Of a stretch of 36,612 nucleotides of DNA, positions 2,743 to 34,139 are shown piece by piece (position 1 is the stretch's first letter; each line of letters starts with the position of its first letter). The stretch covers positions 1 to 36,612 of the forward strand of contig JAUCBJ010002975.1 in NCBI GenBank assembly GCA_032718475.1. Direction: 5' to 3'. The stretch comes from Nemertoderma westbladi (lineage: Eukaryota > Animalia > Xenacoelomorpha). The notes beneath the pieces are model-generated. The model was not told where the DNA came from. It searched no databases and saw nothing but the letters and a program-made list of their open reading frames with translations. The position numbers and the translations under genes were made by a program.

Positions 2743-5284
2743 TCATCCAGCATACATTCCTCTCTATGCGTTTGGGTCACTATTCATCCAGCATACATTC
2801 CTCTCTTTGCGTTTGGGTCACTATTCATCCAGCATACATTCCTCTCTTTGTGTTTGGGTCACTATTCATCCAGCATACATTCCTCTCTATGCGTTTGGGT
2901 CACTATTCATCCAGCATACATTCCTCTCTATGCGTTTGGGTCACTATTCATCCAGCATACATTCCTCTCTATGTGTTTGGGTCACTATTCATCCAGCATA
3001 CATTCCTCTCTATGCGTTTGGGTCACTATTCATCCAGCATACATTCCTCTCTATGCGTTTGGGTCACTATTCATCCAGCATACATTCCTCTCTATGTGTT
3101 TGGGTCACTATTCATCCAGCATACATTCCTCTCTATGTGTTTGGGTCACTATTCATCCAGCATACATTCCTCTCTATGCGTTTGGGTCACTATTCATCCA
3201 GCATACATTCCTCTCTATGCGTTTGGGTCACTATTCATCCAGCATACATTCCTCTCTATGTGTTTGGGTCACTATTCATCCAGCACACATTCCTTTCTAT
3301 GCGTTTGGGTCACTATTCATCCAGCATACATTCCTCTCTATGCGTTTGGGTCACTATTCATCCAGCATACATTCCTCTCTATGCGTTTGGGTCACTATTC
3401 ATCCAGCACACATTCCTTTCTATGCGTTTGGGTCACTATTCATCCAGCATACATTACTCTCTATGTGTTTGGGTCACTATTCATCCAGCATACATTCCTC
3501 TCTATGTGTTTGGGTCACTATTCATCCAGCACACATTCCTCTCTATGCGTTTGGGTCACTATTCATCCAGCACACATTCCTCTCTATGCGTTTGGGTCAC
3601 TATTCATCCAGCATACATTCCTCTCTATGTGTTTGGGTCACTATTCATCCAGCATACATTCCTCTCTATGCGTTTGGGTCACTATTCATCCAGCACACAT
3701 TCCTCTCTATGCGTTTGGGTCACTATTCATCCAGCATACATTCCTCTCTATGCGTTTGGGTCACTATTCATCCAGCATACATTCCTCTCTATGCGTTTGG
3801 GTCACTATTCATCCAGCATACATTCCTCTCTATGCGTTTGGGTCACTATTCATTCAGCATACATTCCTATCTATGCGTTTGGGTCACTATTCATCCAGCA
3901 TACATTCCTCTCTATGCGTTTGGGTCAATATTCATCCAGCACACATTCCTCTCTATGCGTTTGGGTCACTATTCATCCAGCATACATTCCTCTCTATGTG
4001 TTTGGGTCACTATTCATCCAGCATACATTCCTCTCTATGTGTTTGGGTCACTATTCATCCAGCATACATTCCTCTCTATGCGTTTGGGTCACTATTCATC
4101 CAGCATACATTCCTCTCTATGTGTTTGGGTCACTATTCATCCAGCATACATTCCTCTCTATGCGTTTGGGTCACTATTCATCCAGCATACATTCCTCTCT
4201 ATGCGTTTGGGTCACTATTCATCCAGCATACATTCCTCTCTATGTGTTTGGGTCACTATTCATCCAGCATACATTCCTCTCTGTGTTTGGGTCACTATTC
4301 ATCCAGCATACATTCCTCTCTATGTGTTTGGGTCACTATTCATCCAGCATACATTCCTCTCTAAGCGTTTGGGTCACTATTCATCCAGCATACATTCCTC
4401 TCTAAGCGTTTGGGTCACTATTCATCCAGCATACATTCCTCTCTATGCGTTTGGGTCACTATTCATCCAGCATACATTCCTCTCTATGTGTTTGGGTCAC
4501 TATTCATCCAGCATACATTCCTCTCTATGTGTTTGGGTCACTATTCATCCAGCATACATTCCTCTCTATGCGTTTGGGTCACTATTCATCCAGCATACAT
4601 TCCTCTCTATGCGTTTGGGTCACTATTCATCCAGCATACATTCCTCTCTATGCGTTTGGGTCACTATTAATCCAGCATACATTCCTCTCTATGCGTTTGG
4701 GTCACTATTCATCCAGCATACATTCCTCTCTATGTGTTTGGGTCACTATTCATCCAGCATACATTCCTCTCTATGCGTTTGGGTCACTATTCATCCAGCA
4801 TACATTCCTCTCTATGCGTTTGGGTCACTATTCATCCAGCATACATTCCTCTCTATGCGTTTGGGTCACTATTCATCCAGCATACATTCCTCTCTATGCG
4901 TTTGGGTCACTATTCATCCAGCATACATTCCTCTCTATGCGTTTGGGTCACTATTCATCCAGCACACATTCCTCTCTATGCGTTTGGGTCACTATTCATC
5001 CAGCATACATTCCTCTCTATGCGTTTGGGTCACTATTCATCCAGCATACATTCCTCTCTATGCGTTTGGGTCACTATTCATCCAGCATACATTCCTCTCT
5101 ATGCGTTTGGGTCACTATTCATCCAGCATACATTCCTCTCTATGTGTTTGGGTCACTATTCATCCAGCATACATTCCTCTCTATGCGTTTGGGTCACTAT
5201 TCATCCAGCATACATTCCTCTCTATGCGTTTGGGTCACTATTCATCCAGCATACATTCCTCTCTAAGCGTTTGGGTCACTATTC
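2743..5284. repeat. 41-bp tandem array, about 62 copies, in intron 2 of the cubilin-like gene
   Basis: Unit TCATCCAGCATACATTCCTCTCTATGCGTTTGGGTCACTAT repeated head to tail with a few recurrent variants (TGCG/TGTG, ATAC/ACAC, one 2-bp deletion near 4282). Confidence 0.98.
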
Positions 5285-7796: not shown

Positions 7797-9650
7797 TTGT
7801 GGCGGTAGGTAAGTGTTTGTGGCTGTAGGTGCGTGTTTCTGGCTGTAGGTGCGTTTTTGTGGCTGTAGGTGCGTGTTTGTGGCTGTAGGTGCGTGTTTGT
7901 GGCTGTAGATGCGTGTTTGTGGCTGTAGGTGCGTGTTTGTGGCTGTAGGTGCGTGTTTGTGGCTGTAGGTGCATATTTGTGGCTGTAGGTGCGTGTTTGT
8001 GGCGGTAGGTGCGTGTTTGTGGCTGTAGGTGCGTGTTTGTGGCGGTAGGTACGTGTTTGTGGCTGTAGGTGTGCGTGTTTGTGGCTGTAGGTGCGTGATT
8101 GTGGCTGTAGGTGCGTGTTTGTGGCTGTAGGTGCGTGTTTGTGGCTGTAGGTGCGTGTTTGTGGCTGTAGGTGCGTGTTTGTGGCGGTAGGTACGTGTTT
8201 GTGGCTGTAGGTGCGTGTTTGTGGCGGTAGGTACGTGTTTGTGGCTGTAGATGCGTGTTTGTGGCTGTAGGTGCGTGTTTGTGGCTGTAGGTGCGTGTTT
8301 GTGGCGGTAGGTACGTGTTTGTGGCTGTAGGTGCGTGTTTGTGGCGGTAGGTACGTGTTTGTGGCTGTAGGTGCGTGTTTGTGGCTGTAGGTACGTGTTT
8401 GTGGCTGTATGTGCGTGTTTGTGGCTTTAGGTGCGTGTTTGTGGCTGTAGGTGCATATTTGTGGCTGTAGGTGCGTGTTTGTGGCTGTAGGTGCGTGTTT
8501 GTGGCGGTAGGTGCGTGTTTGTGGCTGTAGGTGCGTGTTTGTGGCGGTAGGTACGTGTTTGTGGCTGTAGGTGCGTGTTTGTGGCTTTAGGTGCGTGTTT
8601 GTGGCTGTAGGTGCGTGTTTGTGGCTGTAGGTGCGTGTTTGTGGCTGTAGGTGCGTGTTTGTGGCTGTAGGTGCGTGTTTGTGGCGGTAGGTGCGTGTTT
8701 GTGGCTGTAGGTGCGTGTTTGTGGCGGTAGGTACGTGTTTGTGGCTGTAGGTGCGTGTTTGTGGCTGTAGGTGCGTGTTTGTGGCGGTAGGTACGTGTTT
8801 GTGGCTGTAGGTACGTGTTTGTGGCTGTAGGTGCGTGTTTGTGGCTGTAGGTGCGTGTTTGTGGCTGTAGGTGCGTGTTTGTGGCTGTAGGTGCGTGTTT
8901 GTGGCTGTAGGTGCGTGTTTGTGGCTGTAGGTGCGTGTTTGTGGCGGTAGGTACGTGTTTGTGGCTGTAGGTGCGTGTTTGTGGCTGTAGGTGCGTGTTT
9001 GTGGCTGTAGGTGCGTGTTTGTGGCTGTAGGTGCGTGTTTGTGGCTGTAGGTGCATGTTTGTGGCTGTATGTGCGTGTTTGTGGCTGTAGGTGCGTGTTT
9101 CTGGCTGTAGGTGCGTGTTTGTGGCTGTAGGTGCGTGTTTGTGGCTGTAGGTGCGTGTTTGTGGCTGTAGGTGCGTGTTTGTGGCTGTAGGTGCGTGTTT
9201 GTGGCTGTAGGTGCGTGTTTGTGGCTGTAGGTGTGCGTGTTTGTGGCTGTAGGTGCGTGTTTGTGGCTGTAGGTGCGTGTTTGTGGCTGTAGGTGCGTGT
9301 TTGTGGCTGTAGGTACGTGTTTGTGGCTGTAGGTGCGTGTTTGTGGCTGTAGGTGCGTGTTTGTGGCTGTAGGTGCGTGTTTGTGGCTGTAGGTGCGTGT
9401 TTGTGGCTGTAGGTGCGTGTTTGTGGCTGTAGGTGCGTGTTTGTGGCTGTAGGTGCGTGTTTGTGGCTGTAGGTGCGTGTTTGTGGCTGTAGGTGCGTGT
9501 TTGTGGCTGTAGGTGCGTGTTTGTGGCTGTAGGTGCGTGTTTGTGGCTGTAGGTGCGTGTTTGTGGCTGTAGGTGCGTGTTTGTGGCTGTAGGTGCGTGT
9601 TTGTGGCTGTAGGTGCGTGTTTGTGGCTGTAGGTGCGTGTTTGTGGCTGT
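7797..9650. repeat. 20-bp tandem array, about 92 copies, in intron 1 of the cubilin-like gene
   Basis: Unit TTGTGGCTGTAGGTGCGTGT; variants GGCGG, GTAC and two 2-bp GT insertions; the right end is nearly homogeneous. Confidence 0.98.
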
Positions 9651-10224
9651 TAGTCTCAGAATTTAGTAATATTGATTGATTGATTTATTTTTTATTTATT
9701 TATTTATTTAATGAAATATTAATTTCTCATGTCAACACCTCAACGAAATTATTTAGCTAATGATTCTAAAGAATCACGATTAAATACTCATGCAATCATT
9801 TTGCGAGATAATGCAAGCTGGCTTATTAGTATGGCACCTTACACTCGTAGTGCCTGCCTATGCCATATAGATGTAATTACCCGTTTCCAAGTAAGTGGTG
9901 AGATGATTGGACTGGTTCCCACTACAGACATAGCAAGTATGCCTAGGGGGACGGGATGGATTTTGATATCTTAAGCACGTTTAGATCAATTAAAAACACA
10001 TTTCTTAAAGCAAATCACTTGAATTAATTAAAAACTATAATGGAATGGGGTATGGGGATTACAGCTGAATAATTTTTAAGTATAATTATTTATATCTTAT
10101 ACTATAAAATAATTAATTTCCATTAAAAGTCATTTTAAAAATGCTGTTTTCACCCTAACTAACTTAATTAATTTTAATTTAATTAATTAACTGCTATTAT
10201 CATAGCTTCTCGAAGGCCACACGC

Positions 10225-10416
10225 AAATTCAACTTGGAAAATGTCTAAACTTTTTTTGCCAGACTACATGTGTACCAAGATTCATCCAGATTTGGCTGAG
10301 TTATTAACGTTTAAAATTGGACACGACAGAACAACATAACGACAGAACAACAGACACTCCGAATGAGTTAGTGGTACCTGTATGCTTACTCGCTTACTTT
10401 CGTGGCTCGCCCCACA
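10225..10416 (-). mobile_element. Left-end fragment of the GTGGGGCGAGCCAC element family
   Basis: TTCGTGGCTCGCCCCACAA at about 10398-10416 is the complement of the starts at 27260 and 35232; ACGACAGAACAAC short repeats; related core at 24245-24360. Confidence 0.6.
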
Positions 10417-10447
10417 AAGAGCACTAATACATAGCTGCTAACAAACG

Positions 10448-10800
10448 TGCCACAAACGCGCAAAAACAGCCACAAATACGCAAAAACAACCACAAACACG
10501 CACCTACAGCCACAAACACGCATCTACAGCCACAAACACCCACCAACTGCCACAAACACGCACCTAAAGCCACAAACACGCACCTACAGCCACAAACACG
10601 CACCAACAGCAAGTGCGTGTTTGTGGCGGTAGGTACGTGTTTGTGGCTGTAGGTGCATATTTGTGGCTGTAGGTGCGTGTTTGTGGCTGTAGGTGCGTGT
10701 TTGTGGCTGTAGGTGCGTGTTTGTGGCTGTAGGTGCGTGTTTGTGGCTGTAGGTGCGTGTTTGTGGCTGTAGGTGCGTGTTTGTGGCTGTTTTTGCGTAT
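10448..10800. repeat. Fold-back palindrome of the 20-bp unit (about 8 inverted copies followed by about 9 direct copies)
   Basis: Orientation switches near 10611 with almost no spacer; both outer ends carry the GCAAAAACAGCC variant. Confidence 0.95.
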
Positions 10801-11269
10801 AGGCAGGCACTACGAGTGTAAGGTGCCATACTAATAAGCCAGCTTGCATTATCTCGCAAAATGATTGCCTGAGTATTTAATTGTGATTCTTTAGAATAAT
10901 TAGCTAAATAATTTCGTTGAGGTGTTGACATGATAAATTAATATTTCAGTATCAATATATCGGCATAAGGTAAGTCACATTATGTTTCACATTATGTATA
11001 TTTTGATATTCCAGTGTTTGTCTGTGGAGAATGTAGTAGTAGACTTACTACCGCACCGGTAGGCCTACAATAACTAATATAATACGTTATCTCCTCCCTA
11101 TCTTTGCTAATTAAATTCTGAGACTAATCTTCCTTGCGGAGGAAATATTTATATAAATGGAATTTGCGCTATTTTTTTATTACCATCCCATTCACAATCA
11201 CAGAAAAACTATGAATCACAGGAATATAGCTCATACAATGAATATTTAAAAAAATAAAAAGTTTTGAAA

Positions 11270-15742: not shown

Positions 15743-16850
15743 TTATGTGGATGCTTCTATGTTTAAGTGCTGGTAAACCGCTTTAATACAGAAAGTTTCC
15801 TCGTTGCGATCGTCCACGTCGTTTACGAAGAGAAGGATCTCAGTGACCCCTTGGGAGGCGACCGGGGAGAACTTCAGCCCGATAGCGTGTGATTCCCGGC
15901 CTTCTATACGAGTCTGGGACTCTTTGAACTGGAGTAAATCGTCGCGGTTCGAACGGAATCTAAAGGTTTTAGCGTATTGGTAGGGGTTGGTGAACGCAAT
16001 GCGTTTATTAGAGCCGCGACCTCCTCCGACAGGGAGAGAGATCTCGAACGCTTTAGAGATGTCGGGGAGACGGCAGGTGAGACAGACGAGCCACGATCTC
16101 ACAACTCGATGTAACTCGATATCCACGGCGTTGACGTAGATGAATTTACTCCCGAGTTCGAGGGGGCGAACGGAGATCTCGAGCTCGCGAGCCGAGCTGT
16201 GAGCGAGCATAAAGGGTTCCGAAGGTACGAGTTGCATCTCGCGAGGCGCGCTCGTGAAACAACGAACCAAGCGAGCGGGGCCCCCGCGTAGCACGAGGTT
16301 GAACCGGGTCGTCTGGCCCTCGACGCAACTCACATCGACGCGTTGGAGAGCGTGCACGAGGAACTGCCAGGTCTGCGCGGGTTTAGCGGCGAACTCGTCG
16401 AGAAAGACGAGCACAAAGAACTTCTTTATAGAAGGCGAGGCCCCGACTGGGGATTTAATAGCGACATCTAGCGGATCTCCCGGGTGCGAATAACGGCCGA
16501 GTGCGATTACTTCGGGGTCGCTGGATATCGCGCGGAACTGAACCGGCTGATCGCGAGTTGCGACGCTGTGGTAGGGAGGCAGACGAACCGTTTTCTTTAG
16601 GAAGGTTGACTCTGGCTGCTGGAAACGGAATGTTTGGTCTACCAGTTGGGGCTGCGGCTCGACAGCCAATGAGAGTATCGCCACCGGTTTGTGAGCCTCC
16701 CCCTTGAAGTAGACTCGTATGGTCCGCGTCTGGAGGGCCGTGTCCACCGTGATCTCTCGGTTGCTCAGCGACGACAACGCGCCAGAGCTGGATTCCAGAC
16801 GGTCCATGGTCTCGGGTTTAGTGGAATGGTCGGCCGTAAAACTCTGGTAT
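15743..16850 (-). CDS. NPHP4: Nephrocystin-4, last coding exon
   Basis: Acceptor tctcttccag| in phase 2 giving PFR-YQSF; motifs VDQTFRF, QTWQFLVHALQRVDV, KRIAFTNPY, LLQFKE, EETFCIKAVY; TAA at 15743. Confidence 0.93.
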
Positions 16851-17039
16851 CTGGAAGAGAACAAGGGATCAAAATCTCAAAGTTGTCAGGAACATTGTAA
16901 GCTACTGTAAATCGAGTTATTTACTTATTTTAAATCTTAATTTTTATTTACTTATCTTAAACAATCTCTAATTTCCTCCATCTCTATAATCCGCCTGCTG
17001 CAGTGAATCTGCACGCACAATGAGATGCTATGCCAAGGT

Positions 17040-18905: not shown

Positions 18906-19701
18906 CAAAATCAAAATAAAATACATTTTTTAAATAGCTAACTTAAGTTTGGAGCTCTAAGACTTTCTACGTTTATCTAAATATACTATTCGACTAATCT
19001 TTAGAGTTGAAAATGTTCACACAGACAATCACATGTTTTCTTGCAGATTCGTTAACTTATAAAAAAGTGCAGAAATGAGACAACAATATACTAAATAATT
19101 AAATTTTTTTTAACAAAGCAGTACCATCAGTGATCTACCAGCGAAGTATATCACGATTTCACTTTAAACAATGGAACTTATAGACTATTTATTTATCCAA
19201 CAAAAACAATAAACTAAAAGAAAAGGCGCTGAGTAGATTTTTGATTATATTTTTAAAAAACCATAATTTACCATCCATCCGAAAATTTAACGTCGACAAC
19301 ATTCTATATTATATTCCTTTTGTTACGTTAATCATGTATGCGTCCACTCTAGTCGATGAATGTAACTTTACTGAACTTTCACACAGTAGTTAGCTGTGCC
19401 GCCCATTTTAATTAATTAATTTAACCGCGTGAAACCGAATCACCATAATACTATTAACTTTACAAAAAATTTACAGAGATTCGACCGCAAAGTTAAAATG
19501 TCGCCAGTGTTGAGAAAAATAATGCGATTAATTATTGAAGAGATCTATAAGTAAATAAGGTATATAAGTAGGTATATAAGTAAACTCATAAAAAAACATA
19601 ATTATAAGTCAAGTTTCATAATTGAATATATCGTAAAGTTCAAGAGCTATGGAATAAATTAAAGAATTGAAGATAAAAATGAAAGTTAAATAAAGACGAA
19701 C

Positions 19702-21161
19702 CTGGAACTCCCTGGATCTATTAACTTTCAACTCTTTCTTCAATGTGGCGTCGGCACTCATTGGAGAAGATTCGGCCATTCCGGACTTCCGAACCAACTC
19801 CATCCGGAGCAGTTTCTTACTCTTAGAATCGTCTAACAGACTGAGAGACGAGCCGCTACGCATACCTGACAACAGAGTCTCTATACTCCTGTCTGATTGG
19901 CTCATATGTAACGCCTTATTAATACGAGACGATCGCCCGAGACTCAGAGTGGATTGGAAACCTGAGGTTATTGACCCGCCGCCGAACGTTGAATGGCATT
20001 GCCTCACTAAGGTCGGAGCCGTTGGTTGCGGTATAAGTCCGTGCGACGCCGGGTAGCCCACGTTAGCCAACCGGAGATGCAGTCTACCCCGAACTACCGT
20101 CCTCACCCCTATGGGTCGCACCGAGCCGCCGCGGGTTAGATCCCCGGTTAGACTGTCCTCGGTGTACTCCGTGGTCACCACGTCCAACTCGTGGGTGGTC
20201 TGCACGGCCTCGCGACCCTGCCGTACGAGATGCCTCAACTCAACGGCCGACGAGCCAATCAGCATCAAGGAGTCGCCGTCCCAACAGTCTATACGGAGGA
20301 TATGGGTTGCTAGGTAACGATGGAACGCCCCTATCTCTCCTGGTCGCATAGCAACTGGGTCTATTAGATACTTCAAAGTTAACCCTAAAGCCCCGGAAGT
20401 TACGTTGTCATTGGGGTCTAGACGTTTCAAAATAAAAGGTAAATCTTCTCTAAATTCGCTTTCAAATTTGTTTTCTATGTCGCCTAGCAACAGACGTTCT
20501 GTCGATATTTGAGGGAATCGATAAAATTGGAAAGTGAAGAAAATTGTAGAAACTGATTGTTCTTTTCCTCCTTTACTGAATGCGAGAAACTGAAGGATAA
20601 TTTCGTTGCATTTTAAGAAGTCGTTTGTTTCTCGTTTTGGGTCGAATGTTGCGACGTCCCAGACGTCCACGGTCTCGGGAACGTTGCCATGGCGATCGCG
20701 CACGGAAGGGAATCCGGCGGAGTAGAGACGGGCGTAGGCGGCGCGGGAGAGAGCGGTGGTGCCGGAGGCGGTGGACCGAGTGGCTACGTGGGCGAGTACG
20801 GGGGCGTGAAGCGGAGTGTAGGGGACCTCGTGGAGGGAGTCCACCACCTCGGGGGGTGGGTAGGAGGGGCGGAGAGAGGGGGTGAGGTAGCGGGGCTCCG
20901 AGGTGAAGGGATGGGGGGTCAGGGAGGGGGTCTGTACGCTGGCGGGATGGGAGGGATGAGCGGGATGAGATACAGGAATCCCGTAATCGTAATCCTCCTC
21001 CCAGTATTCAGGAGTTGCCTCAGGTTTCCTCCGCCGTCTCACTTTTCGTTCTTCCATCTCTTCTTCCCGTTCCTCTGGAAGCCTCTCTTCCTCTTCTTCC
21101 TCCTCTTCAACCTCATCCTCCTGTTCATCAACTTGCTTCTCCCGTTTTCGACGCGGTTTCT
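19702..21161 (-). CDS. NPHP4: Nephrocystin-4, coding exon 2
   Basis: Acceptor tatatttag| in phase 1 and donor |gttcgt in phase 0; acidic and Pro-rich linker, then LSRAAYARLYSAGFP, NEIILQFLAF, FFTFQFYRFP, IDCWDGDSLMLIGS, GRLHLRLANVG. Confidence 0.93.
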
Positions 21162-21484
21162 CTAAATATAATTTGAGAACATGTTGATAGTGTTAAAAAT
21201 AATACTTTATTTTATGGCCAAACAACTAATCTTTGACAGTTGTGAAATACGGTACCGGTATATGAGATTAAACCAAAAATATAATTATTTATTACATGGG
21301 AAAAAAAGTAGATTTTTTTTCACTATTCTCGATGCCTTTTATTTATCGAGAGAAAGCCGCCCCAATAGTAGATTATAACAACAACATTTTCATTGGGTAA
21401 GGAAGTGGAGGATAGCCGGACTTACAACTTAGTTTATATTACACGATCAAATTTCACTCCTAATGAACCCAACATGTATGTACG

Positions 21485-23690: not shown

Positions 23691-24488
23691 AATAATAAAA
23701 GTAAAATCAATGCAATCCAATGGGTTACTTTTTTCCCTAGGAAAAAAAGTACTCCATTATTTCCCGATTTTGGGGTATATTCAAGCGAAAAATTGACAAT
23801 CTAAGAACAAAAGTTTTTCTAAAAAAAATGTCTTATTCTGAAATTTATTGCAGACCTATCACTACGACTACGTACAGTAAAACCATTGTTACCTATTACT
23901 AGTCTCTGCCACATATAAGCTTGGATAATTCACTCAAAACGAGTTAGAAAACCGTTGATTTTAATCTTCCCGGTACGGCTTTCGTAATGAATTTTTTTTA
24001 ATTTAAGAGATACTGGAATTTAAACCGAACATTGAAAAGTTCACAAAATTCTCTATAAACAGTTATTATTATCATTCCTTATTATTCTCGCACCAAAAAA
24101 ATTTACATATATAAAGCGAAAAACAATCACACTAACATACCAACAGGTAAGAATAGAAAGAGTGACGGATGGATAGTTAGCGCTAATTTAATGAAAACAG
24201 CAAAAAATTATAAATTCTTACACATAAGTTTGTCTGTGCCTAGAATTTCTAAACTTTTGATAGACTACATGTTTACCAAGTTTGGTTCCATTTCATCCAT
24301 GATTGACTGACTTATTAGCGTTCAAACATTCTAGCCACAAACCCGCCAACTACGAACAAACTAATACAGTAATAGCTGCCGGAACTCGAGCTGAGCTCCA
24401 GTGATTAATTGAAGTGTAAAGAGATACACAGAAATCAACTACAAATGTTGTTGATATCTTACTCACAGTAAATTATCTCATTACTCAC

Positions 24489-25698
24489 CTTGTTGCTTCC
24501 GTTTGGAGGGAATAAAGGTCAACACGGCCTGGAGGCTCCCGTTGTAGACTAGCGCCTCCAGCGGAATAGCACCGCCGCCTCCGAGCATAGTCAGTTCCAC
24601 GGGAGACCCCAAGGGGCCACCGAGAAACGGTTGCCATGGAGCCCAGCGGATAACGATCTCCTTGGACGAGCGAGTCACCGAAATCTTGCGTTTTAATTTC
24701 TCGGCTTTTGGGAACTCGATTTTGTAAACTAATTCTACAACCACGGCCACATTGGGGTCGAGGGGTACGTTGGAGAGTTCCACCGTTCCGATATTTAATT
24801 TGCTATTATTCTCGTTGTCGATCTCGATTGGGTTTGACTCGCTTTTAGTAACGAGATGCCAACCGTTGTGCGCCGAGACACGCAGCTTACGACCTACTAC
24901 GATAATCTTACAATCCTCTCGGTTCAATAAACTTTTACTAACTAATAAACCGCTCATATCTTTGCAGAATTGCAACTCGAACTTTGATATATTCGGGTTG
25001 ACTTCGACTCGAATGTTATCGAGGTAAATTCGTGTAGCTTTCACGGATTCTACCTCCGAAGAAATATCCCTGTTCGGAGAGAGAGAATCGTTTTTACCAA
25101 TTAAAACGTTGGCGGGAAGTAACTGGGAGATTTTTAGTAGGTTTTTATGCGCGAATAAATTGTATATAATTTTACTATCTGTGAGAATATTTAAGTGTTT
25201 CGAAATTTCGGTGAGGTTCATAAGTGTTAGGGCTCTAGGATTGCCGTGGTATATATCCAAGGAGCGAGATGGGCGTGTTTTCTTTTTATGCGAAACATCG
25301 GAAATGTCTTCAGAGAAAGGGAACAGGAAGGTGAAACCCTCGCTGAGTAACACCTCGGCTTTGGCATCGCGAGAAACTAACTCGAAAACAAGGGCGATAT
25401 CTTTGGGGTTATCAACGGGGAAAGTATGGAAATTAATAGAATCGTTAAATTTCACAAAGTCCCCGTCGCTGCTCGCAGGTTTGAGTTTAGATTTCCATGA
25501 TTTTCCAAAGAAACTTTTGTATCGACTGTCATAAAGATGGATTTGGAGGCCGTAATGAGTGGCTTTCGTGGAATTTGGAACGCCAATCAACTCGGATAAG
25601 TGTAACGAAAACGGAACCGATAAATCGTTGGATGATGTTCGTTGTATCGGCGTTGATATGATCCCTTGTTTGTCACGGATAGAATTTAGAAACTCCAT
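24489..25698 (-). CDS. NPHP4: Nephrocystin-4, first coding exon
   Basis: ATG 25698 preceded by an in-frame stop; donor |gtgagt in phase 1; motifs LYDSRYKSFFGKSWKS, YHGNPRAL, RKLRVSAHNG, IRWAPWQP; the four exons sum to 4113 nt = 1370 aa plus stop. Confidence 0.88.
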
Positions 25699-26070
25699 TA
25701 TCTATTATATCTTTGAAAATATCGGGACTATGTTATCTATAATTATGTTCGATAATCAAAGGAAATCTGAATAAGTTACCGGTAGAATAACCTAATAAAT
25801 TAATATATACAGTACCGGTATATAGCATAGGAACCTGCCCGCTTATAGACTGATGTCCCGATTTTGCGATAAACTTATCGGCTATCGCCGAAATAGTCAA
25901 TAAAATAAGTACTGTGCAGCAATAACCACCTAACACTTTTGTTAGGGCCTACTTGTTAGCTCCTCAGGTTGGCTACATTGAAATGCCAACAAAACAGCAC
26001 AGCTACCAGGTAGGTTGCACACAGCATATCATATAATCATATATCAGACATTCTGCATATGTTTACTGAA

Positions 26071-26596: not shown

Positions 26597-27030
26597 AGAG
26601 CTTGGAGGGGTCTTCTTGTCAGTAGCAATAGAGCTTGGAGGGGTCTTCTTGTCAGTAGCAATATAGCTTGGAGGGGTCTTCTTGTCAGTAGCAATAGAGC
26701 TTGGAGGGGTCTTCTTGTCAGTAGCAATATAGCTTGGAGGGGTCTTCTTGTCAGTAGCAATAAAGCTTGGAGGGGTCTTCTTGTCAGTAGCAATATAGCT
26801 TGGAGGGGTCTTCTTGTCAGTAGCAATATAGCTTGGAGGGGTCTTCTTGTCAGTAGCAATAGAGCTTGGAGGGGTCTTCTTGTCAGTAGCAATAGAGCTT
26901 GGAGGGGTCTTCTTGTCAGTAGCAATAGAGCTTGGAGGGGTCTTCTTGTCAGTAGCAATAGAGCTTGGAGGGGTCTTCTTGTCAGTAGCAATATACTGTA
27001 GCTTGGAGGGGTCTTCTTGTCAGTAGCAAT
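26597..27030. repeat. 33-bp tandem array, about 13 copies
   Basis: Unit AGAGCTTGGAGGGGTCTTCTTGTCAGTAGCAAT with AGAG/ATAG/AAAG variants; short insertion before the last copy. Confidence 0.97.
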
Positions 27031-28383: not shown

Positions 28384-29016
28384 AACACATATTTGTCTAA
28401 CACAAATTACAAATTCAGATACAATAGCTCTACTGTACTAAGGTACAGATGCTATCATCAGCTCAAACATATATCTGATGTCGGAAATTTCAAGTAAAAT
28501 ATAATTCAACATTACTTTATTAGGTCACTAAGTAACTACATCTGAAAGATTCCTTCCTAGTTCATATTATATTAACAACATTTATTGTTTTGGTTAGAAT
28601 AACGTGTCACTGTAACCTCCTTTTTTTTTTTTTTTTTTTTTTTTTTTTCCCTGAGTAATTAATAATTTTACACTGAGCTACTGTATACATTAATTCACCG
28701 AGATGGATTTTCATCCACTTCCCACTACCCCCGTCTCAGCCTGTGCTGGGTGGGAATCTCTGCAATCAATAATTCTTATATAAATATCTTCAATTTATTT
28801 TTTCATATGGGCCACACTTTGGCATCGCAAATATAATTATTAACATCAAATTTGGCCCCTTTAACCTTTTTTTATACTGTAGGCCTACTCGAAAAATATA
28901 ATAATATAGCAAGGCTTTTAGTCAGAACTCGAAAATATGAGGAAGGATGTTATCGGGGGTTGAACCAGTGCTCTATTTTAATATTTTACGTTAATAAATG
29001 CAATGAGGTAGTATAT

Positions 29017-29317
29017 TATTGGGATCGGAAATAAATGAATACCAGCTGCATCAGTTTATTAATGGTCGACATACAGAACAGCATATCAAACAATAATAAG
29101 AACCAACAGACCAACGAACACACCCACCACCTTACAGCACATCAGTACAGCAGTACAGTAGGTACCGGTAACGGCTACTGTACCTACAGACCTAGAAGAT
29201 AGGAAAGACTGAATACCGGAATACCAGAAGAGGACCGGTAGGTAAAAGACCAGTAGGTTGGATCTAACCACCACCAAGCCAGGGTCTACTAGAGCCCTAA
29301 CAATACATAATCTAACA
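29017..29317 (-). repeat. 3' LTR (301 bp)
   Basis: No difference seen from 33508-33808; on the element strand it begins TGTTAG and ends CCCAATA. Confidence 0.97.
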
Positions 29318-29388
29318 TCTCCCCCAAGAACAATGTAGGAGACATTTGTACTGAAAAAAAAAAATCCAACCACCACCAATAGGTCAGT

Positions 29389-32300
29389 TCATTGAACTCC
29401 GAATCTTGCTGGTTGCTTGTGAGTTCTCGAACTGCGCCTGGGAAGATCATCAGCGAACTGTACCTGTTTTTGAGGCGTTATGTCACGAAGAGAAGAGTCA
29501 TCTGGGATGGAACGTAGATAACGACGATTTCTCCAATACACCCGACCATTGTCTAGTTCTATCCGGTAATCTCGCCTAGTACCACGGGAAAGGACGATAC
29601 CAGATTTGTTCCATAGTTTGGAATGTGCACTCTGGATGCAAACTCGGGAACCAATAGGAATCGGGGTTAAGTCGTGAGCATGATCATTATAATATGATTC
29701 AGTTGCTGAAGACGTTGAAGGACCAGGGATAGGGAATGAATCACCTGCCAGTGTGGACGAATGAGCTGGTATAGTGGAACGGAGGGATCTACCGAACAAC
29801 AGTTGAGCTGGAGACATACCATGTTCTTTAGGAGTATTTCTCCATTCCAGCAAACCACGAACAAAGCAAGTAGAGTTTAGATCTCCTTTGATATCTAACT
29901 TTTTTATCAATGATTTCATGGCCTTTACAGCCCCCTCTGCATGGCCATTAGACTGAGGATACTCAGGAGTAGAATACTCAGGGATGATATTCCATTCGGA
30001 TAAGAAATCATGATAACGTGCTGAATTAAATTGTGTACCACCATCAGAACAAAGGCGTTTTGGAATACCGAAATCTTTGAACCATCCTCGAAGAGCTGAA
30101 ATAACTTGAGAGCTGGAAGGATCGGCACGCCAAGAATGAACGCATGGCCACCCAGAATATCTATCGACATAAACCAGGTATGACCAGGTGCTGAAGTAGA
30201 AAAGATCAGCAGAGCAATCCTCCATTGGAAGACATGGATGAGGGTCGCTTTGGAGAGACTCTTTAGGTAAACTTGGTTGATAAAGTTGACACTGGGGACA
30301 ATAATTGACTATGTTTGTAATATCGCTATTGATACCAGGCCAGAATACAGTTTGCCTAGCTCTCCTCTTAGAACGTTCAATGCCCTGATGAGCATCATGA
30401 AGGTGCTTCAGGACATTCTTGTGGAGGGAAGATGGAATTACAATCCGGGAACCTAATAAAAGAAGATTATCTTCACAAGATAACTGATGTCGCACATTCC
30501 AGAATGGGCGTATGTGCACAGAACATTGTGTGGATGTTGAGGGAAATCCAGAAATAACAGCATCCACCAAAGCCATGTAAGAAATATCATCCTTTGCAGA
30601 TGATTGGATAGACTCAATATATGAATCCTTGAGATGACTTGGAGCATCAGAGACAACAATTGAGGTAGACACGTGACGAATGACTGCGGAAACATGGTCA
30701 TTGACATCTGTATCACAAAGAATATCCTCTGGAGTAGGATCCGAAACAGGGACACGGGAAAGTGCGTCTGGAATCGAATCGATATCGGAAGTGATATCGG
30801 AAGTGATATCGGAAGTGATATCAGTAGTGATATCAGAAGTGATATCGGAAATGATATCGGAAGTGATATCAGAAGTGATATCGGAAGTGATATCGGAAAT
30901 GATATCGGAAGTGATATCAGAAATGATATCGGAAGTGATATCAGAAGTGATATCGGAAGTGATATCGGAAGTGATATCAGAAGTGATATCGGAAGTGATA
31001 TCGGAAGTGATATCGGAAATGATATCGGAAGTGATATCAGAAGTGATATCGGAAGTGATATCGGAAGTGATATCGGAAATGATATCGGAAGTGATATCAG
31101 AAGTGATATTGGAAGTGATATCGGAAGTGATATCAGAAGTGATATCGGAAGTGATATCGGAAGTGATATCGGAAATGATATCGGAAGTGATATCAGAAGT
31201 GATATCGGAAGTGATATCGGAAGTGATATCAGAAGTGATATCGGAAGTGATATCGGAAGTGATATTGGAAGTGATATCGGAAGGATGAACCCAATCAGTT
31301 GGTTGGTTATCCAGAACTGGACAAATAATACCTTGTTCAACCATTTTCTCTAAGCAAGCTTTAGCCCAGTCTCTAATGGCTAAAGGAAGTTGCCTGGCTG
31401 TATGAATAGCATATGGTTGGGCATCATCTTTTAATGAAATGGTCATGGGTGGGCCATTCATTGGACGAAGTTTGTCATTTTGGTCAAAAACATCAGAATA
31501 AGCCTTTATGAGTTTCTGCTTAACAGTATCCCATTCTGAAGGCGAAGGTTCATCAGAAAGATGGAAGTCAACCTTGAATGATGTTGTTGGAATTGAGTTT
31601 TTAATACCAATAGGTGACATATTAGAAGAATTAGAAGAAGCAACAGACTGAATTTCTGCCACTGGTTTTGGATATGAACTTGAAATAATTCCTAGGTTTT
31701 GACAAGTATACCATGCCAAAAGAATTCCATCGACTTCTTCACAAATGCAGATAAGCTCATCAGTTGAATATTCACCATAGGAAATTGTGGTGTGGAGGAG
31801 ACCAATGCATGAAAGAAGACTACCATTAGCAGCAGAAAGATCATCATGGTCTGGTGGAAGTAAATTTTCTTTGTCAATAGAAAGGGCCTGAAGAAAATCT
31901 AAGCCGGCAACAGTGGCCTCAGCACCAGTATCTGGAGTTGCTTTGAGAGAACCGAATAAATGTCCTGTTGCGATATGACAGAAGTTCAGAAATACTTTCG
32001 GAGCTTGTCGATTATGGCTTCCAACCAAATTGAGGGTGATGCGGCTAATGGGTTTTGTCTTAGGTTTTGAAGATGAATTCGAATTATTTTGTTTAGACCG
32101 ACAAACATTGGCAAAGTGGCCTTCCTTGCCACAATAAGAACAATCTTTGTTCCTTGCTGGACAGTCAGCGCGTTTATGGTCTGTTTTACCACAACCATAA
32201 CAAACTATAGGGCCAGTAGTTGAAGAATTGTTTCTGGAATTGGATTTAGAAGAATTGTTGCGCCTGGAATTATATGGCTTTTTGTTGTGAAAACGAGATT

Positions 32301-33105
32301 GTAGAGAAGCTTGGTTGATTGAAGGGTTTTTTAAATCCTGAACTCCAGCTTGGGCTGATTCCTCAGACCTACAAAGATTTACAGCATCTTCAAGCGATGG
32401 AAATGGAGTCAATGCAAGAAGTTTAGATCTGGTGTCCTCGCAAGAAATACCAGACATAATTCGAGTAGTCAACCGCCGATCGAAACAATGACGACATAGA
32501 TCAGCATCTCGAGCAAGATCTTTAATAGCAACCAGGTAGCTATCAAAATTTTCACTTTGACGTTGTTTCCTATTATCAAACTGAACACAATCAAGGGCTA
32601 TATTCCGTTTACCACGAAAATAACTTTGAATACAATCTATTAACACCTGAACTGTTAAAGGATTATCATGTGTGTCAGGAGGAATGTCAATAACTTGTTC
32701 CAGTGTAGAGCGCATACCTATAGAAAGGTAACTCCTGAAAATACAGATTTGCCTATCCCTAGCCATTCTATCCATCTGAAATGCAGAATAATAATCTGCC
32801 CAAACCGACTTCCAAGTTTCAAATTTTGCTAAACTGAAATCCGGTTCTAAAGCAATTGGAGCTTTAATTTGAAGATTACGAGGGGTTGAGTCAGCCTGAT
32901 GAACTACAGGTTGATGTGGTTGACCAAGTAATTGTTGAAATTGATGGGCATTTTGGGCTTGGGATTGTGCTAAGGAATCAGCCAAATCGCGTTGTGATTT
33001 AACTAAAGCATGTAGAAGAGCTGAGGTGGGATCAGGATTACCACGACCAGCCAACTGTTCTCTTAAAACCTCCAGTTCGGTTTCGAGTTCAGCTTTAGTA
33101 GGCAT
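29389..33105 (-). CDS. Gag-protease-(ITSD)n-integrase polyprotein, 1238 aa
   Basis: Paired zinc knuckles CYGCGKTDHKRADC and CSYCGKEGHFANVC; protease DTGA; RT lead-in up to WVHP; RNase H tail IPDALSR; integrase HHCC (HDAHQG...CPQC) and DDE (ADLF, SDGG, SNGHAE); no YxDD. Confidence 0.93.
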   Translation of the reverse strand: MPTKAELETELEVLREQLAGRGNPDPTSALLHALVKSQRDLADSLAQSQAQNAHQFQQLLGQPHQPVVHQADSTPRNLQIKAPIALEPDFSLAKFETWKSVWADYYSAFQMDRMARDRQICIFRSYLSIGMRSTLEQVIDIPPDTHDNPLTVQVLIDCIQSYFRGKRNIALDCVQFDNRKQRQSENFDSYLVAIKDLARDADLCRHCFDRRLTTRIMSGISCEDTRSKLLALTPFPSLEDAVNLCRSEESAQAGVQDLKNPSINQASLQSRFHNKKPYNSRRNNSSKSNSRNNSSTTGPIVCYGCGKTDHKRADCPARNKDCSYCGKEGHFANVCRSKQNNSNSSSKPKTKPISRITLNLVGSHNRQAPKVFLNFCHIATGHLFGSLKATPDTGAEATVAGLDFLQALSIDKENLLPPDHDDLSAANGSLLSCIGLLHTTISYGEYSTDELICICEEVDGILLAWYTCQNLGIISSSYPKPVAEIQSVASSNSSNMSPIGIKNSIPTTSFKVDFHLSDEPSPSEWDTVKQKLIKAYSDVFDQNDKLRPMNGPPMTISLKDDAQPYAIHTARQLPLAIRDWAKACLEKMVEQGIICPVLDNQPTDWVHPSDITSNITSDITSDITSDITSDITSDITSDITSDIISDITSDITSDITSDITSDITSNITSDITSDIISDITSDITSDITSDITSDIISDITSDITSDITSDITSDITSDITSDITSDIISDITSDIISDITSDITSDITSDIISDITSDITTDITSDITSDITSDIDSIPDALSRVPVSDPTPEDILCDTDVNDHVSAVIRHVSTSIVVSDAPSHLKDSYIESIQSSAKDDISYMALVDAVISGFPSTSTQCSVHIRPFWNVRHQLSCEDNLLLLGSRIVIPSSLHKNVLKHLHDAHQGIERSKRRARQTVFWPGINSDITNIVNYCPQCQLYQPSLPKESLQSDPHPCLPMEDCSADLFYFSTWSYLVYVDRYSGWPCVHSWRADPSSSQVISALRGWFKDFGIPKRLCSDGGTQFNSARYHDFLSEWNIIPEYSTPEYPQSNGHAEGAVKAMKSLIKKLDIKGDLNSTCFVRGLLEWRNTPKEHGMSPAQLLFGRSLRSTIPAHSSTLAGDSFPIPGPSTSSATESYYNDHAHDLTPIPIGSRVCIQSAHSKLWNKSGIVLSRGTRRDYRIELDNGRVYWRNRRYLRSIPDDSSLRDITPQKQVQFADDLPRRSSRTHKQPARFGVQ
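30781..31283. repeat. 12-bp tandem array, about 42 copies, inside pol
   Basis: Unit GATATCGGAAGT with variants AGAAGT, GGAAAT and GATATT. Confidence 0.98.
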
Positions 33106-33489
33106 ATCTGACTGTTGAATATTAGAGAAATTTCAGGAAATTAAATATCCGAAAAAATTTTGCAAAATCCGAAAAGAAAAAATTTTGCAAAAATGTGCAA
33201 AACTTTTGCACGCAAATCAGCCAAAATCTGTAGTTATCGAATACTGGCAGACTGGAATACCGCCTGACTGCTGAATGTGAATTGAATAGGTACCGGTCTG
33301 CCGGTAGTTATAATTACAGATTTTGGCTGATTTGCGTGCAAAAGTTTTGCACATTTTTGCTAAACTGATGCAGCTGGTATTCATTTATTTCCGATCCCAA
33401 TATGGCGCAGTGATGTACTTGATGTTCCTACAACCCTATTCAAATGGTGGACATTCCAGCGCATTCAGCAGGTCAGATAATTCAATATT

Positions 33490-33507
33490 ATCCTACACAC
33501 TGCGCCA
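33490..33507 (-). other. Primer binding site, probably tRNA-Ser
   Basis: TGGCGCAGTGTGTAGGAT directly abuts the 5' LTR; its complement ATCCTACACACTGCGCCA resembles serine tRNA 3' ends. Confidence 0.8.
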
Positions 33508-33808
33508 TATTGGGATCGGAAATAAATGAATACCAGCTGCATCAGTTTATTAATGGTCGACATACAGAACAGCATATCAAACAATAATAAGAACCAACAG
33601 ACCAACGAACACACCCACCACCTTACAGCACATCAGTACAGCAGTACAGTAGGTACCGGTAACGGCTACTGTACCTACAGACCTAGAAGATAGGAAAGAC
33701 TGAATACCGGAATACCAGAAGAGGACCGGTAGGTAAAAGACCAGTAGGTTGGATCTAACCACCACCAAGCCAGGGTCTACTAGAGCCCTAACAATACATA
33801 ATCTAACA
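33508..33808 (-). repeat. 5' LTR (301 bp)
   Basis: Direct repeat of 29017-29317. Confidence 0.97.
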
Positions 33809-34139
33809 TATATTAAGGCATTTCTGCATTTAATAACCATAGAAGGTTGTATTCGAGTTGTTGTACTGTATTATTGTGTCAAAACATAAATAAATAAAGA
33901 ACAAATCATTCAAACTTTGAAAAGTTTTCAACGGCTGTTTGTCTGAATTAATAAACAAAAAAGCTATTTATCATTATTTTTTTTATTATATATAATAGTA
34001 AAAAAAACACACTAAATGGGAAATTTTATTAAATACGGTTATAAAAATTCTACCAATTTTACATCCCACCACCAGCCAATGTTACCTAGGTTACAAATAT
34101 AAACAATAACAATTATATTAATATTAGAATACCGGTATT

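What the first reader, a model, noticed from the sequence alone, without database searches (positions are those of the whole stretch)
29017..33808. Young LTR retrotransposon whose RT and RNase H are replaced in frame by a 12-bp repeat
Seen: the ORF runs ...QPTDWVHP-S(DITS)n-DIDS-IPDALSR with no stop or frameshift. Gag zinc knuckles, protease and integrase motifs are intact, the LTRs look identical, and TSD, PBS and PPT are present. Established: in Ty3/gypsy pol, W-x-[SH]-P opens the RT domain and xDALSR closes RNase H, so roughly a kilobase of enzyme sequence is missing and about 500 bp of repeat stands in its place. Inference: this could be a semi-autonomous lineage that supplies its own Gag, PR and IN, keeps IN in frame through a Ser/Thr/Asp/Ile spacer and borrows RT in trans. 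It could also act as a dominant-negative or defective-interfering element. Frame preservation has about a 1-in-3 chance by luck, so one copy does not prove selection.
Basis: partly seen in the sequence, partly recalled or inferred. Interest (0 to 1): 0.88.

Follow-up and report, generated by a model that had tools for sequence, protein, structure and literature searches.

The report
Repeat-filled, RT-less retrotransposon lineage
This jumping gene has lost its copying enzyme and carries an in-frame 12-base repeat in its place; the same repeat junction occurs in another sample alongside intact relatives, so it likely spreads by borrowing their enzyme, an unusual form of a known kind of genomic parasite.

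Summary
Observation confirmed. A Mag-like Ty3/gypsy element (− strand, identical 301-bp LTRs, 5-bp TSD) carries one 1238-aa frame, Gag–protease–(DITS)41–integrase; 371 aa of RT and RNase H are missing. Public contigs show an RT-bearing sibling about 99.5% identical, with 1114 letters where the window has 502. In sample S1 the repeat junction holds about half the family's depth (811 of 1541), roughly 12–26 times flank depth, while the one contig at this site fits the empty allele; no contig of sample S2 reached the array. So it is neither an assembly artefact nor a one-off. It is likely a non-autonomous sublineage copied by the sibling's RT. The filler probably began as an inverted copy of breakpoint sequence and then expanded. 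Selection on the fusion protein is not shown: 5 of 14 private changes are synonymous, against 4.5 expected. RT-less in-frame forms recur in relatives (an 11-protein family, L015), and this scan noted RT-deleted LTR elements on other DNA. Closest known: mouse IAP 1Δ1. New variant of a known kind; the coding minisatellite is the unusual part.

The parts
33508..33808 (-). 5' LTR, 301 bp, TG...TA ends, AATAAA at 33546-33551
29017..29317 (-). 3' LTR, identical to the 5' LTR; both share two letters that differ from most public contigs (29099/33590, 29175/33666)
33809..33813 (.). Target-site duplication TATAT, 5' side
29012..29016 (.). Target-site duplication TATAT, 3' side
33498..33507 (-). Primer-binding site TGGCGCAGTG directly behind the LTR (tRNA-Ser type is recalled, not tested)
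   Evidence: related loci L016-L019 and L080 have TGGCGCTGCG at the same place
33361..33497 (+). Inverted leader piece: a second, inverted copy of the last 42 bp of the LTR plus the PBS (33361-33412, perfect 52-bp arm with 33498-33549) and 85 bp of leader that public contigs carry in the opposite orientation
   Evidence: loose end behind 33496 in X1, X2, X3 and X2 record 14
33187..33360 (.). Second leader hairpin, perfect 46-bp arms (33187-33232 / 33315-33360)
29389..33105 (-). Single open frame, 1238 aa from ATG: Gag-PR-repeat-IN
32359..32853 (-). Gag capsid-like region
   Evidence: profile from 7 full-length relatives
32101..32202 (-). Two CCHC zinc knuckles
31666..31965 (-). Aspartic protease (PDTGA)
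31282..31557 (-). Lead-in to RT, ending at TDWVHP; left breakpoint 31282/31281
30780..31281 (-). 502-bp filler not shared with the RT-bearing sibling: 41 units of GATATCACTTCC and variants, read as (DITS)n
30283..30779 (-). Last residues of RNase H (SIPDALSR) and integrase N-terminal/HHCC region
29746..30231 (-). Integrase core with D-D35-E
29318..29325 (-). Polypurine tract GGGGGAGA

Best explanation
This is a young copy of an RT- and RNase H-deleted, repeat-filled sublineage of a Mag-like Ty3/gypsy family that is likely copied to new sites by the reverse transcriptase of its intact sibling, with the open frame likely a by-product rather than a selected feature. Steps: (1) SHOWN: 1114 letters of RT-RNase H in the sibling are replaced by 502 letters of repeat, in frame. 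(2) INFERRED: the filler began as a short inverted, templated copy of sequence at the right breakpoint (fold-back or template switch; the leader has inversions of the same kind). (3) SHOWN for the pattern, inferred for the cause: the 12-mer expanded with variants copied along the array; adjacent GATATC palindromes form small hairpins that would favour slippage. (4) SHOWN in short-read contigs: the right junction exists in another sample at about half the family's depth, while this site looks empty there. (5) INFERRED: the deleted RNA keeps LTRs, PBS and PPT, is packaged with RT from intact copies, and integrates with a normal TSD.
For: One 1879-bp contig of X3 covers 31282-31601 and 30335-30779 with 1114 letters between; loose ends read as the start of RT and the end of RNase H as in P0002 (RNase H side in X1, X2 and X3). 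In X1 a 65-bp contig runs from the integrase side into the array (30745-30809, depth 811.4; 35 and 30 letters either side of the divergence point, one short of the tool's 31-letter rule) beside a body contig of 1540.9 (0.53); on the left a contig starts exactly at 31282 (1866.1) and a second of 984.4 covers 31288 (0.53). Flank contigs in X1 have depths 30.9 and 67.2. The only X2 contig at 28982 stops fitting at 29018, exactly as the empty site predicts. The window copy differs from the contigs at 14 places in 3186 coding bases, yet its LTRs are identical (2.5 differences expected, P(0)=0.08) and share two such letters, as a recent round of reverse transcription would give. Array CpG loss 13 (test run against 28 kept) versus 5 of 83 in the body, p=3e-4; a 10-unit block recurs, p=0.004. 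An 8-base stretch of the unit matches the opposite strand of the sibling 2 bases from the right break (chance 0.009-0.04; 0 hits in 4253 other element bases, match read by eye). No excess of synonymous changes: 5 of 14, 4.5 expected.
Against: Contig depth is no copy number (tool's warning), and no contig ties an array-bearing copy to a second flank or TSD, so retrotransposition of several array copies is inferred. Which form the 984.4 contig belongs to is not shown. LTR identity could come from gene conversion or assembly polishing. A unit length divisible by three plus an in-frame join and no stop has only about a 0.09 chance (1/3 x 1/3 x 0.77, rough), which leans towards selection, though the element was noticed because it is in frame. 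14 changes have little power, and young terminal branches often look neutral. The templated-origin match was found after the fact.
Confidence: 0.6

Rival explanations
1. Semi-autonomous lineage with a selected fusion protein: the Gag-PR-(DITS)n-IN protein is made, packages its own RNA in cis and borrows only RT, as IAP 1-delta-1 is reported to gain from its gag-pol fusion; the 12-mer can change copy number without breaking the frame.
For: All catalytic and zinc-binding residues present; no stop or frameshift in 1238 codons; frame-safe design has about 0.09 chance (rough); about half the family's depth in S1. Related RT/RNase H-less in-frame forms: 11 of 14 proteins of the P0012 cluster plus P0014 share one junction (the other 3 are too short to reach it) beside a 92-97% identical full-length partner P0007; L015; P0110 and P0121. 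The P0012 family and L015 keep the same short stretch around IPDALSR. IAP passages: PMC6466679, PMC7411935.
Against: 9 of 14 private changes are non-synonymous, as neutral drift predicts. Protein searches see only in-frame deletions, so their recurrence is biased; in frame-blind DNA loci only 1 of 46 colinear elements lacked RT and RNase H. The P0012 family and L015 have also lost the integrase zinc-finger region, which argues against a working integrase there.
Confidence: 0.25
2. DNA-level spread without retrotransposition: the deletion arose once and was multiplied by segmental or tandem duplication, or pasted into resident copies by gene conversion.
For: In S1 array and RT forms share the same letters at the 14 coding places where the window differs; the genome is rich in tandem arrays; no second array flank was seen.
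Against: This copy has its own TSD and identical LTRs, and the site looks empty in S1, which holds the junction at high depth. Shared letters in S1 also fit recombination between co-packaged RNAs.
Confidence: 0.12
3. Assembly artefact, or a one-off repair event in this copy after insertion.
For: No raw or long reads of this locus were available; the source sample of the window is unknown.
Against: Short-read contigs of a sample that differs from the window at flank and element letters hold the right junction; the array has structured variants that an assembler would not invent.
Confidence: 0.03

Closest known systems
Mouse IAP 1-delta-1 elements (passages read in PMC6466679 and PMC7411935; the primary paper, Saito et al. 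2008, was not held)
   Same: Internal gag-pol deletion that leaves one fused open frame; non-autonomous; coexists with full-length helpers and makes up a large share of copies or new insertions.
   Different: IAP is a betaretrovirus-like ERV with a plain 1.9-kb deletion from gag into pol and a tested cis effect. Here Gag and PR are whole, only RT-RNase H is lost, a 502-bp coding minisatellite fills the gap, and no cis effect is shown.
Semi-autonomous RLG_Sabrina_SA of wheat, RLG_Quinta, TR-GAG (passages of PMC9744471 and 10.64898/2026.03.01.708851; abstract of PMC11302176)
   Same: Gypsy derivatives that keep part of their coding capacity and depend on an autonomous partner.
   Different: They keep Gag or Gag-PR and lack RT and IN; this one keeps an integrase with HHCC and DDE in the same frame.
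Tandem-repeat-bearing LTR elements of Culex quinquefasciatus (passages of PMC3286476)
   Same: Tandem arrays between LTRs in non-autonomous elements and in three Mag elements; Mag rows there have Ser or Leu PBS, mostly 5-bp TSD and 119-304-bp LTRs.
   Different: Those arrays are non-coding (5' UTR, or elements without coding sequence and without a known master); here the array is in frame and the master is about 99.5% identical.
Unnamed RT/RNase H-less relatives found here: P0012 cluster with partner P0007; L015; P0110; P0121
   Same: Same clade of gag-pol proteins; in-frame Gag-PR-IN without RT and RNase H; separate positions in the integrase tree (quick tree).
   Different: No repeat filler; other breakpoints; P0012 family and L015 also lack the integrase zinc finger; no LTR or TSD data.

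Membership tests
Ty3/gypsy LTR retrotransposon family (of origin) | LTR pair, TSD, PBS, PPT | tested here: met
Ty3/gypsy LTR retrotransposon family (of origin) | pol order PR-RT-RH-IN, no env | tested here: met
   Window PR...IN; the sibling contig holds 1114 letters between, with RT start and RNase H end at its edges; relatives carry RVT_1 and RT_RNaseH; no long frame behind IN
Autonomous LTR retrotransposon | Encodes RT and RNase H | tested here: not met
Mag clade | Placement with named Mag elements in an RT/pol tree | not testable with these tools
Mag clade | Short LTRs, 5-bp TSD, Ser/Leu PBS, no env (table in PMC3286476) | tested here: inconclusive
   301-bp LTR and 5-bp TSD fit; tRNA identity of the PBS is recalled, not tested
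Mag clade | LTR end motifs TGTTRKR ... AACA (Mag A, PMC3601003 table 3) | tested here: not met
   5' end TGTTAGA fits; 3' end is AATA, also in public contigs. Hence 'Mag-like', not filed as Mag
Non-autonomous LTR element mobilised in trans | Close autonomous partner in the same species | tested here: met
   RT-bearing contig about 99.5% identical over shared parts; its RT was not read through
Non-autonomous LTR element mobilised in trans | Same deletion junction in more than one copy | tested here: met
   Right junction in X1 contigs at depth 811.4; this site looks empty in the same sample
Non-autonomous LTR element mobilised in trans | Several deleted copies with different flanks and TSDs | not testable with these tools
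   No genome held; contigs break inside the element
IAP 1-delta-1-like semi-autonomous element | Fusion protein under selection or acting in cis | tested here: inconclusive
   5 of 14 synonymous, 4.5 expected; too few changes; no expression data

The most novel reading that the evidence does not exclude
A retrotransposon lineage has swapped its polymerase for a self-generated, length-variable coding minisatellite that keeps integrase fused to Gag and protease; the fusion gives its RNA a cis advantage, letting it take over half the family in one population, and such RT-less Gag-PR-IN parasites are a recurrent, undescribed strategy among Mag-like elements of invertebrates.
Probability: 0.2. Interest if true: 0.75.

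Novelty: new variant of a known kind. Interest (0 to 1): 0.47.

Why it matters
It is a very young helper-parasite pair (about 99.5% identical) in which the parasite seems common in one sample and was not seen in another, so it could show directly whether a retained open frame helps a defective retrotransposon, a question tested mainly on mouse IAP. It also looks like a minisatellite caught close to its birth at a deletion junction and carried around by a retroelement. If the frame is a by-product, it is an odd-looking but ordinary deleted element.

Tried and rejected
Own genome: none held, so no locus census. No RNA holder listed; no evidence either way. No contig of X3 lay on the array (bin depth 272 equals the RT contig alone), and X4 covered little more than the LTR; contigs show presence, not absence. 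Array pattern in metagenome and viral contigs: 0 and 0 matches. Earlier findings by place and by sequence: none. AlphaFold on the 332-aa spacer region without alignment gave one long helix in the best of five models, pTM 0.23: not used. RNA folding z of -17 for the array is a trivial result of the periodic palindrome, not evidence of function. Three apparent RT-less proteins (P0109, P0112, P0136) were dropped as gene models from one arachnid assembly, each with a different join; L004, L025 and L054 were dropped as circularly permuted contigs. Three repeat-only hits (P0070, P0151, P0158) are unrelated low-complexity proteins. The integrase tree is the quick tree on 95 of 164 integrase cores, used only to show that RT-less rows are not one group. 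Paper searches listed no paper on an in-frame minisatellite replacing RT (listings only; open-access library; no supplements read). Saito et al. 2008 was not held.

Full report
Observation. The element lies on the − strand from 33808 to 29017. Its LTRs are 301 bp and identical, the TSD is TATAT on both sides, a PBS-like TGGCGCAGTG follows the 5' LTR and an 8-purine tract precedes the 3' LTR. One stop-free frame spans 29389-33132, 1238 aa from the ATG at 33105. Pfam finds zinc knuckles and two integrase families and nothing for RT or RNase H. The best full-length relative, P0002, aligns in two blocks that leave out 371 aa exactly between TDWVHP and SIPDALSR, where the window has 168 aa of repeat. 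The array has 41 twelve-base units and one junction unit, without indels. Protease and integrase catalytic residues sit in invariant columns. The host is an animal: the open frame tested (19612-21192) is nephrocystin-4-like, at most 50% identical to listed hits.

Is there a helper? No genome is held, so I used public contigs of the same organism label (6 runs listed, 3 with half the words or more, from 2 samples). One 1879-bp contig of X3 covers both sides of the array with 1114 letters between them where the window has 502; the difference is 204 codons. The loose letters at its two edges read as the start of RT and the end of RNase H as in P0002, and the RNase H edge also shows in X1 and X2. 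The shared parts differ from the window at 14 of 3186 coding bases. A near-identical RT-bearing sibling therefore exists; its RT was not read through.

Is the repeat form confined to this locus? No. In X1 the integrase-side contig (depth 1540.9) ends at 30774 and a 65-bp contig of depth 811.4 runs on into the array (35 and 30 letters either side of the divergence point, one short of the tool's bridging rule). On the left a contig of 1866.1 starts exactly at the breakpoint 31282 and a second of 984.4 covers 31288; both ratios are 0.53, though the second contig's form is not shown. Flank contigs in X1 have depths of 30.9 and 67.2, so the junction stands at roughly 12-26 times flank depth; the tool warns that depth is no copy number. 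In X2 (same sample) the only contig at 28982 stops fitting at 29018, exactly where the empty site would diverge. The sample also differs from the window at flank letters, so it is probably not the window's source, though I cannot exclude that. No contig of X3 reached the array. No contig linked an array copy to a second flank.

Was this copy reverse-transcribed in its deleted state? Likely. The body carries 14 private differences, which would predict about 2.5 differences between the LTRs had they arisen in place (P(0)=0.08); there are none, and both LTRs share two letters that most contigs lack. The array also has its own history: 13 lost CpGs against 5 of 83 in the body (p=3e-4) and a 10-unit block that recurs (p=0.004), so variants were copied along it. 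LTR conversion or assembly polishing could mimic the first point.

Origin of the filler (inferred). The unit occurs nowhere else in the window and the array pattern was not found in metagenome or viral contigs. An 8-base stretch of the unit matches the opposite strand of the sibling two bases from the right breakpoint (read by eye; chance 0.009-0.04, 0 hits in 4253 other element bases; found after the fact). The leader shows the same kind of event: an inverted copy of the LTR end and PBS and a second 46-bp hairpin, where X1, X2 and X3 show the leader running on in the other orientation. A fold-back or template-switch event followed by slippage, helped by GATATC hairpins between neighbouring units, is the simplest account.

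Is the frame selected? Not shown. 5 of the 14 private changes are synonymous against 4.5 expected. All three sense frames of the unit are stop-free, so the join needed only a 1-in-3 chance; with a unit length divisible by three and no stop the joint chance is about 0.09. RT/RNase H-less in-frame forms recur in relatives: 11 of 14 proteins of the P0012 cluster and P0014 share one junction (3 are too short to reach it) and have a 92-97% identical full-length partner, P0007; P0110 and P0121 are single cases; L015 is 1 of 46 colinear metagenome loci. Three more were dropped as gene models. Protein searches see only in-frame deletions, and the P0012 family and L015 have lost the integrase zinc finger too, so this recurrence does not prove function.

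Comparison. It works like a non-autonomous LTR element with a close helper; the nearest described case is mouse IAP 1-delta-1, whose gag-pol fusion is reported to act in cis (passages; primary paper not held). Plant semi-autonomous elements keep Gag or Gag-PR only (passages; abstract), deletion derivatives that outnumber their parent are reported in grasses (passage), and Culex elements carry non-coding arrays (passages). It resembles Mag elements in LTR size, TSD and paired knuckles, but the 3' LTR end fails the published motif (passages) and no named reference was available, so it is called Mag-like only. Seven searches (listings only, no supplements read) showed no report of an in-frame minisatellite in place of RT. 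This scan has noted RT-deleted LTR elements on other DNA.

Verdict. Real, more than one copy, likely mobilised in trans (0.6 with the frame as a by-product, 0.25 with a selected fusion protein). New variant of a known kind; interest 0.47.

Noticed in passing
window 33187-33549: The leader has two perfect inverted repeats; the first duplicates the LTR end and PBS in reverse. Contig depth over 33240-33330 is about half of body depth in X1, about 40% in X2 and about 1% in X3, so part of this leader may travel with the array lineage (two samples only).
   Followed up: partly
window 30335-31601 in run X3: Depth is 552 over the RT-flanking stretch against 885-996 on both sides, which could mean a second, longer deletion form in sample S2; no joint was seen because the two sides were laid separately.
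   Followed up: no
window 29017-29020 and 33508-33511: The family's LTR ends in TA, not CA, also in public contigs, whereas related loci L016-L019, L029 and L052 end in CA.
   Followed up: partly
run X4, record 25: A 2281-bp contig holds only the LTR, apparently with its own 5-bp duplication, at high depth: possibly a solo LTR inside a repeated unit; little of the element body was laid in this run.
   Followed up: no
P0012 cluster, P0014 and P0007: A second, unnamed helper-parasite pair: 11 proteins share two in-frame deletions (RT-RNase H and the integrase zinc finger) beside a 92-97% identical full-length partner. L015 has a similar double deletion.
   Followed up: partly
window 30769-31340: A weak GT donor about 55 bases before the array and a CAG acceptor at the right junction are in the same phase, so the array could in principle be spliced out in frame; read by eye, no RNA evidence.
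   Followed up: no
window 15743-16876, 19609-21192, 24481-25701: Three long open frames on the − strand; the middle one is nephrocystin-4-like and the others look like further parts of the same intron-poor gene. The element lies about 3.3 kb 5' of the most upstream one.
   Followed up: partly
window 2743-5284, 7797-10790, 26597-27030: Other young minisatellites (41, 20 and 33 bp); the 20-bp array recurs inverted within a 153-bp inverted-repeat structure at 9709-10951.
   Followed up: no
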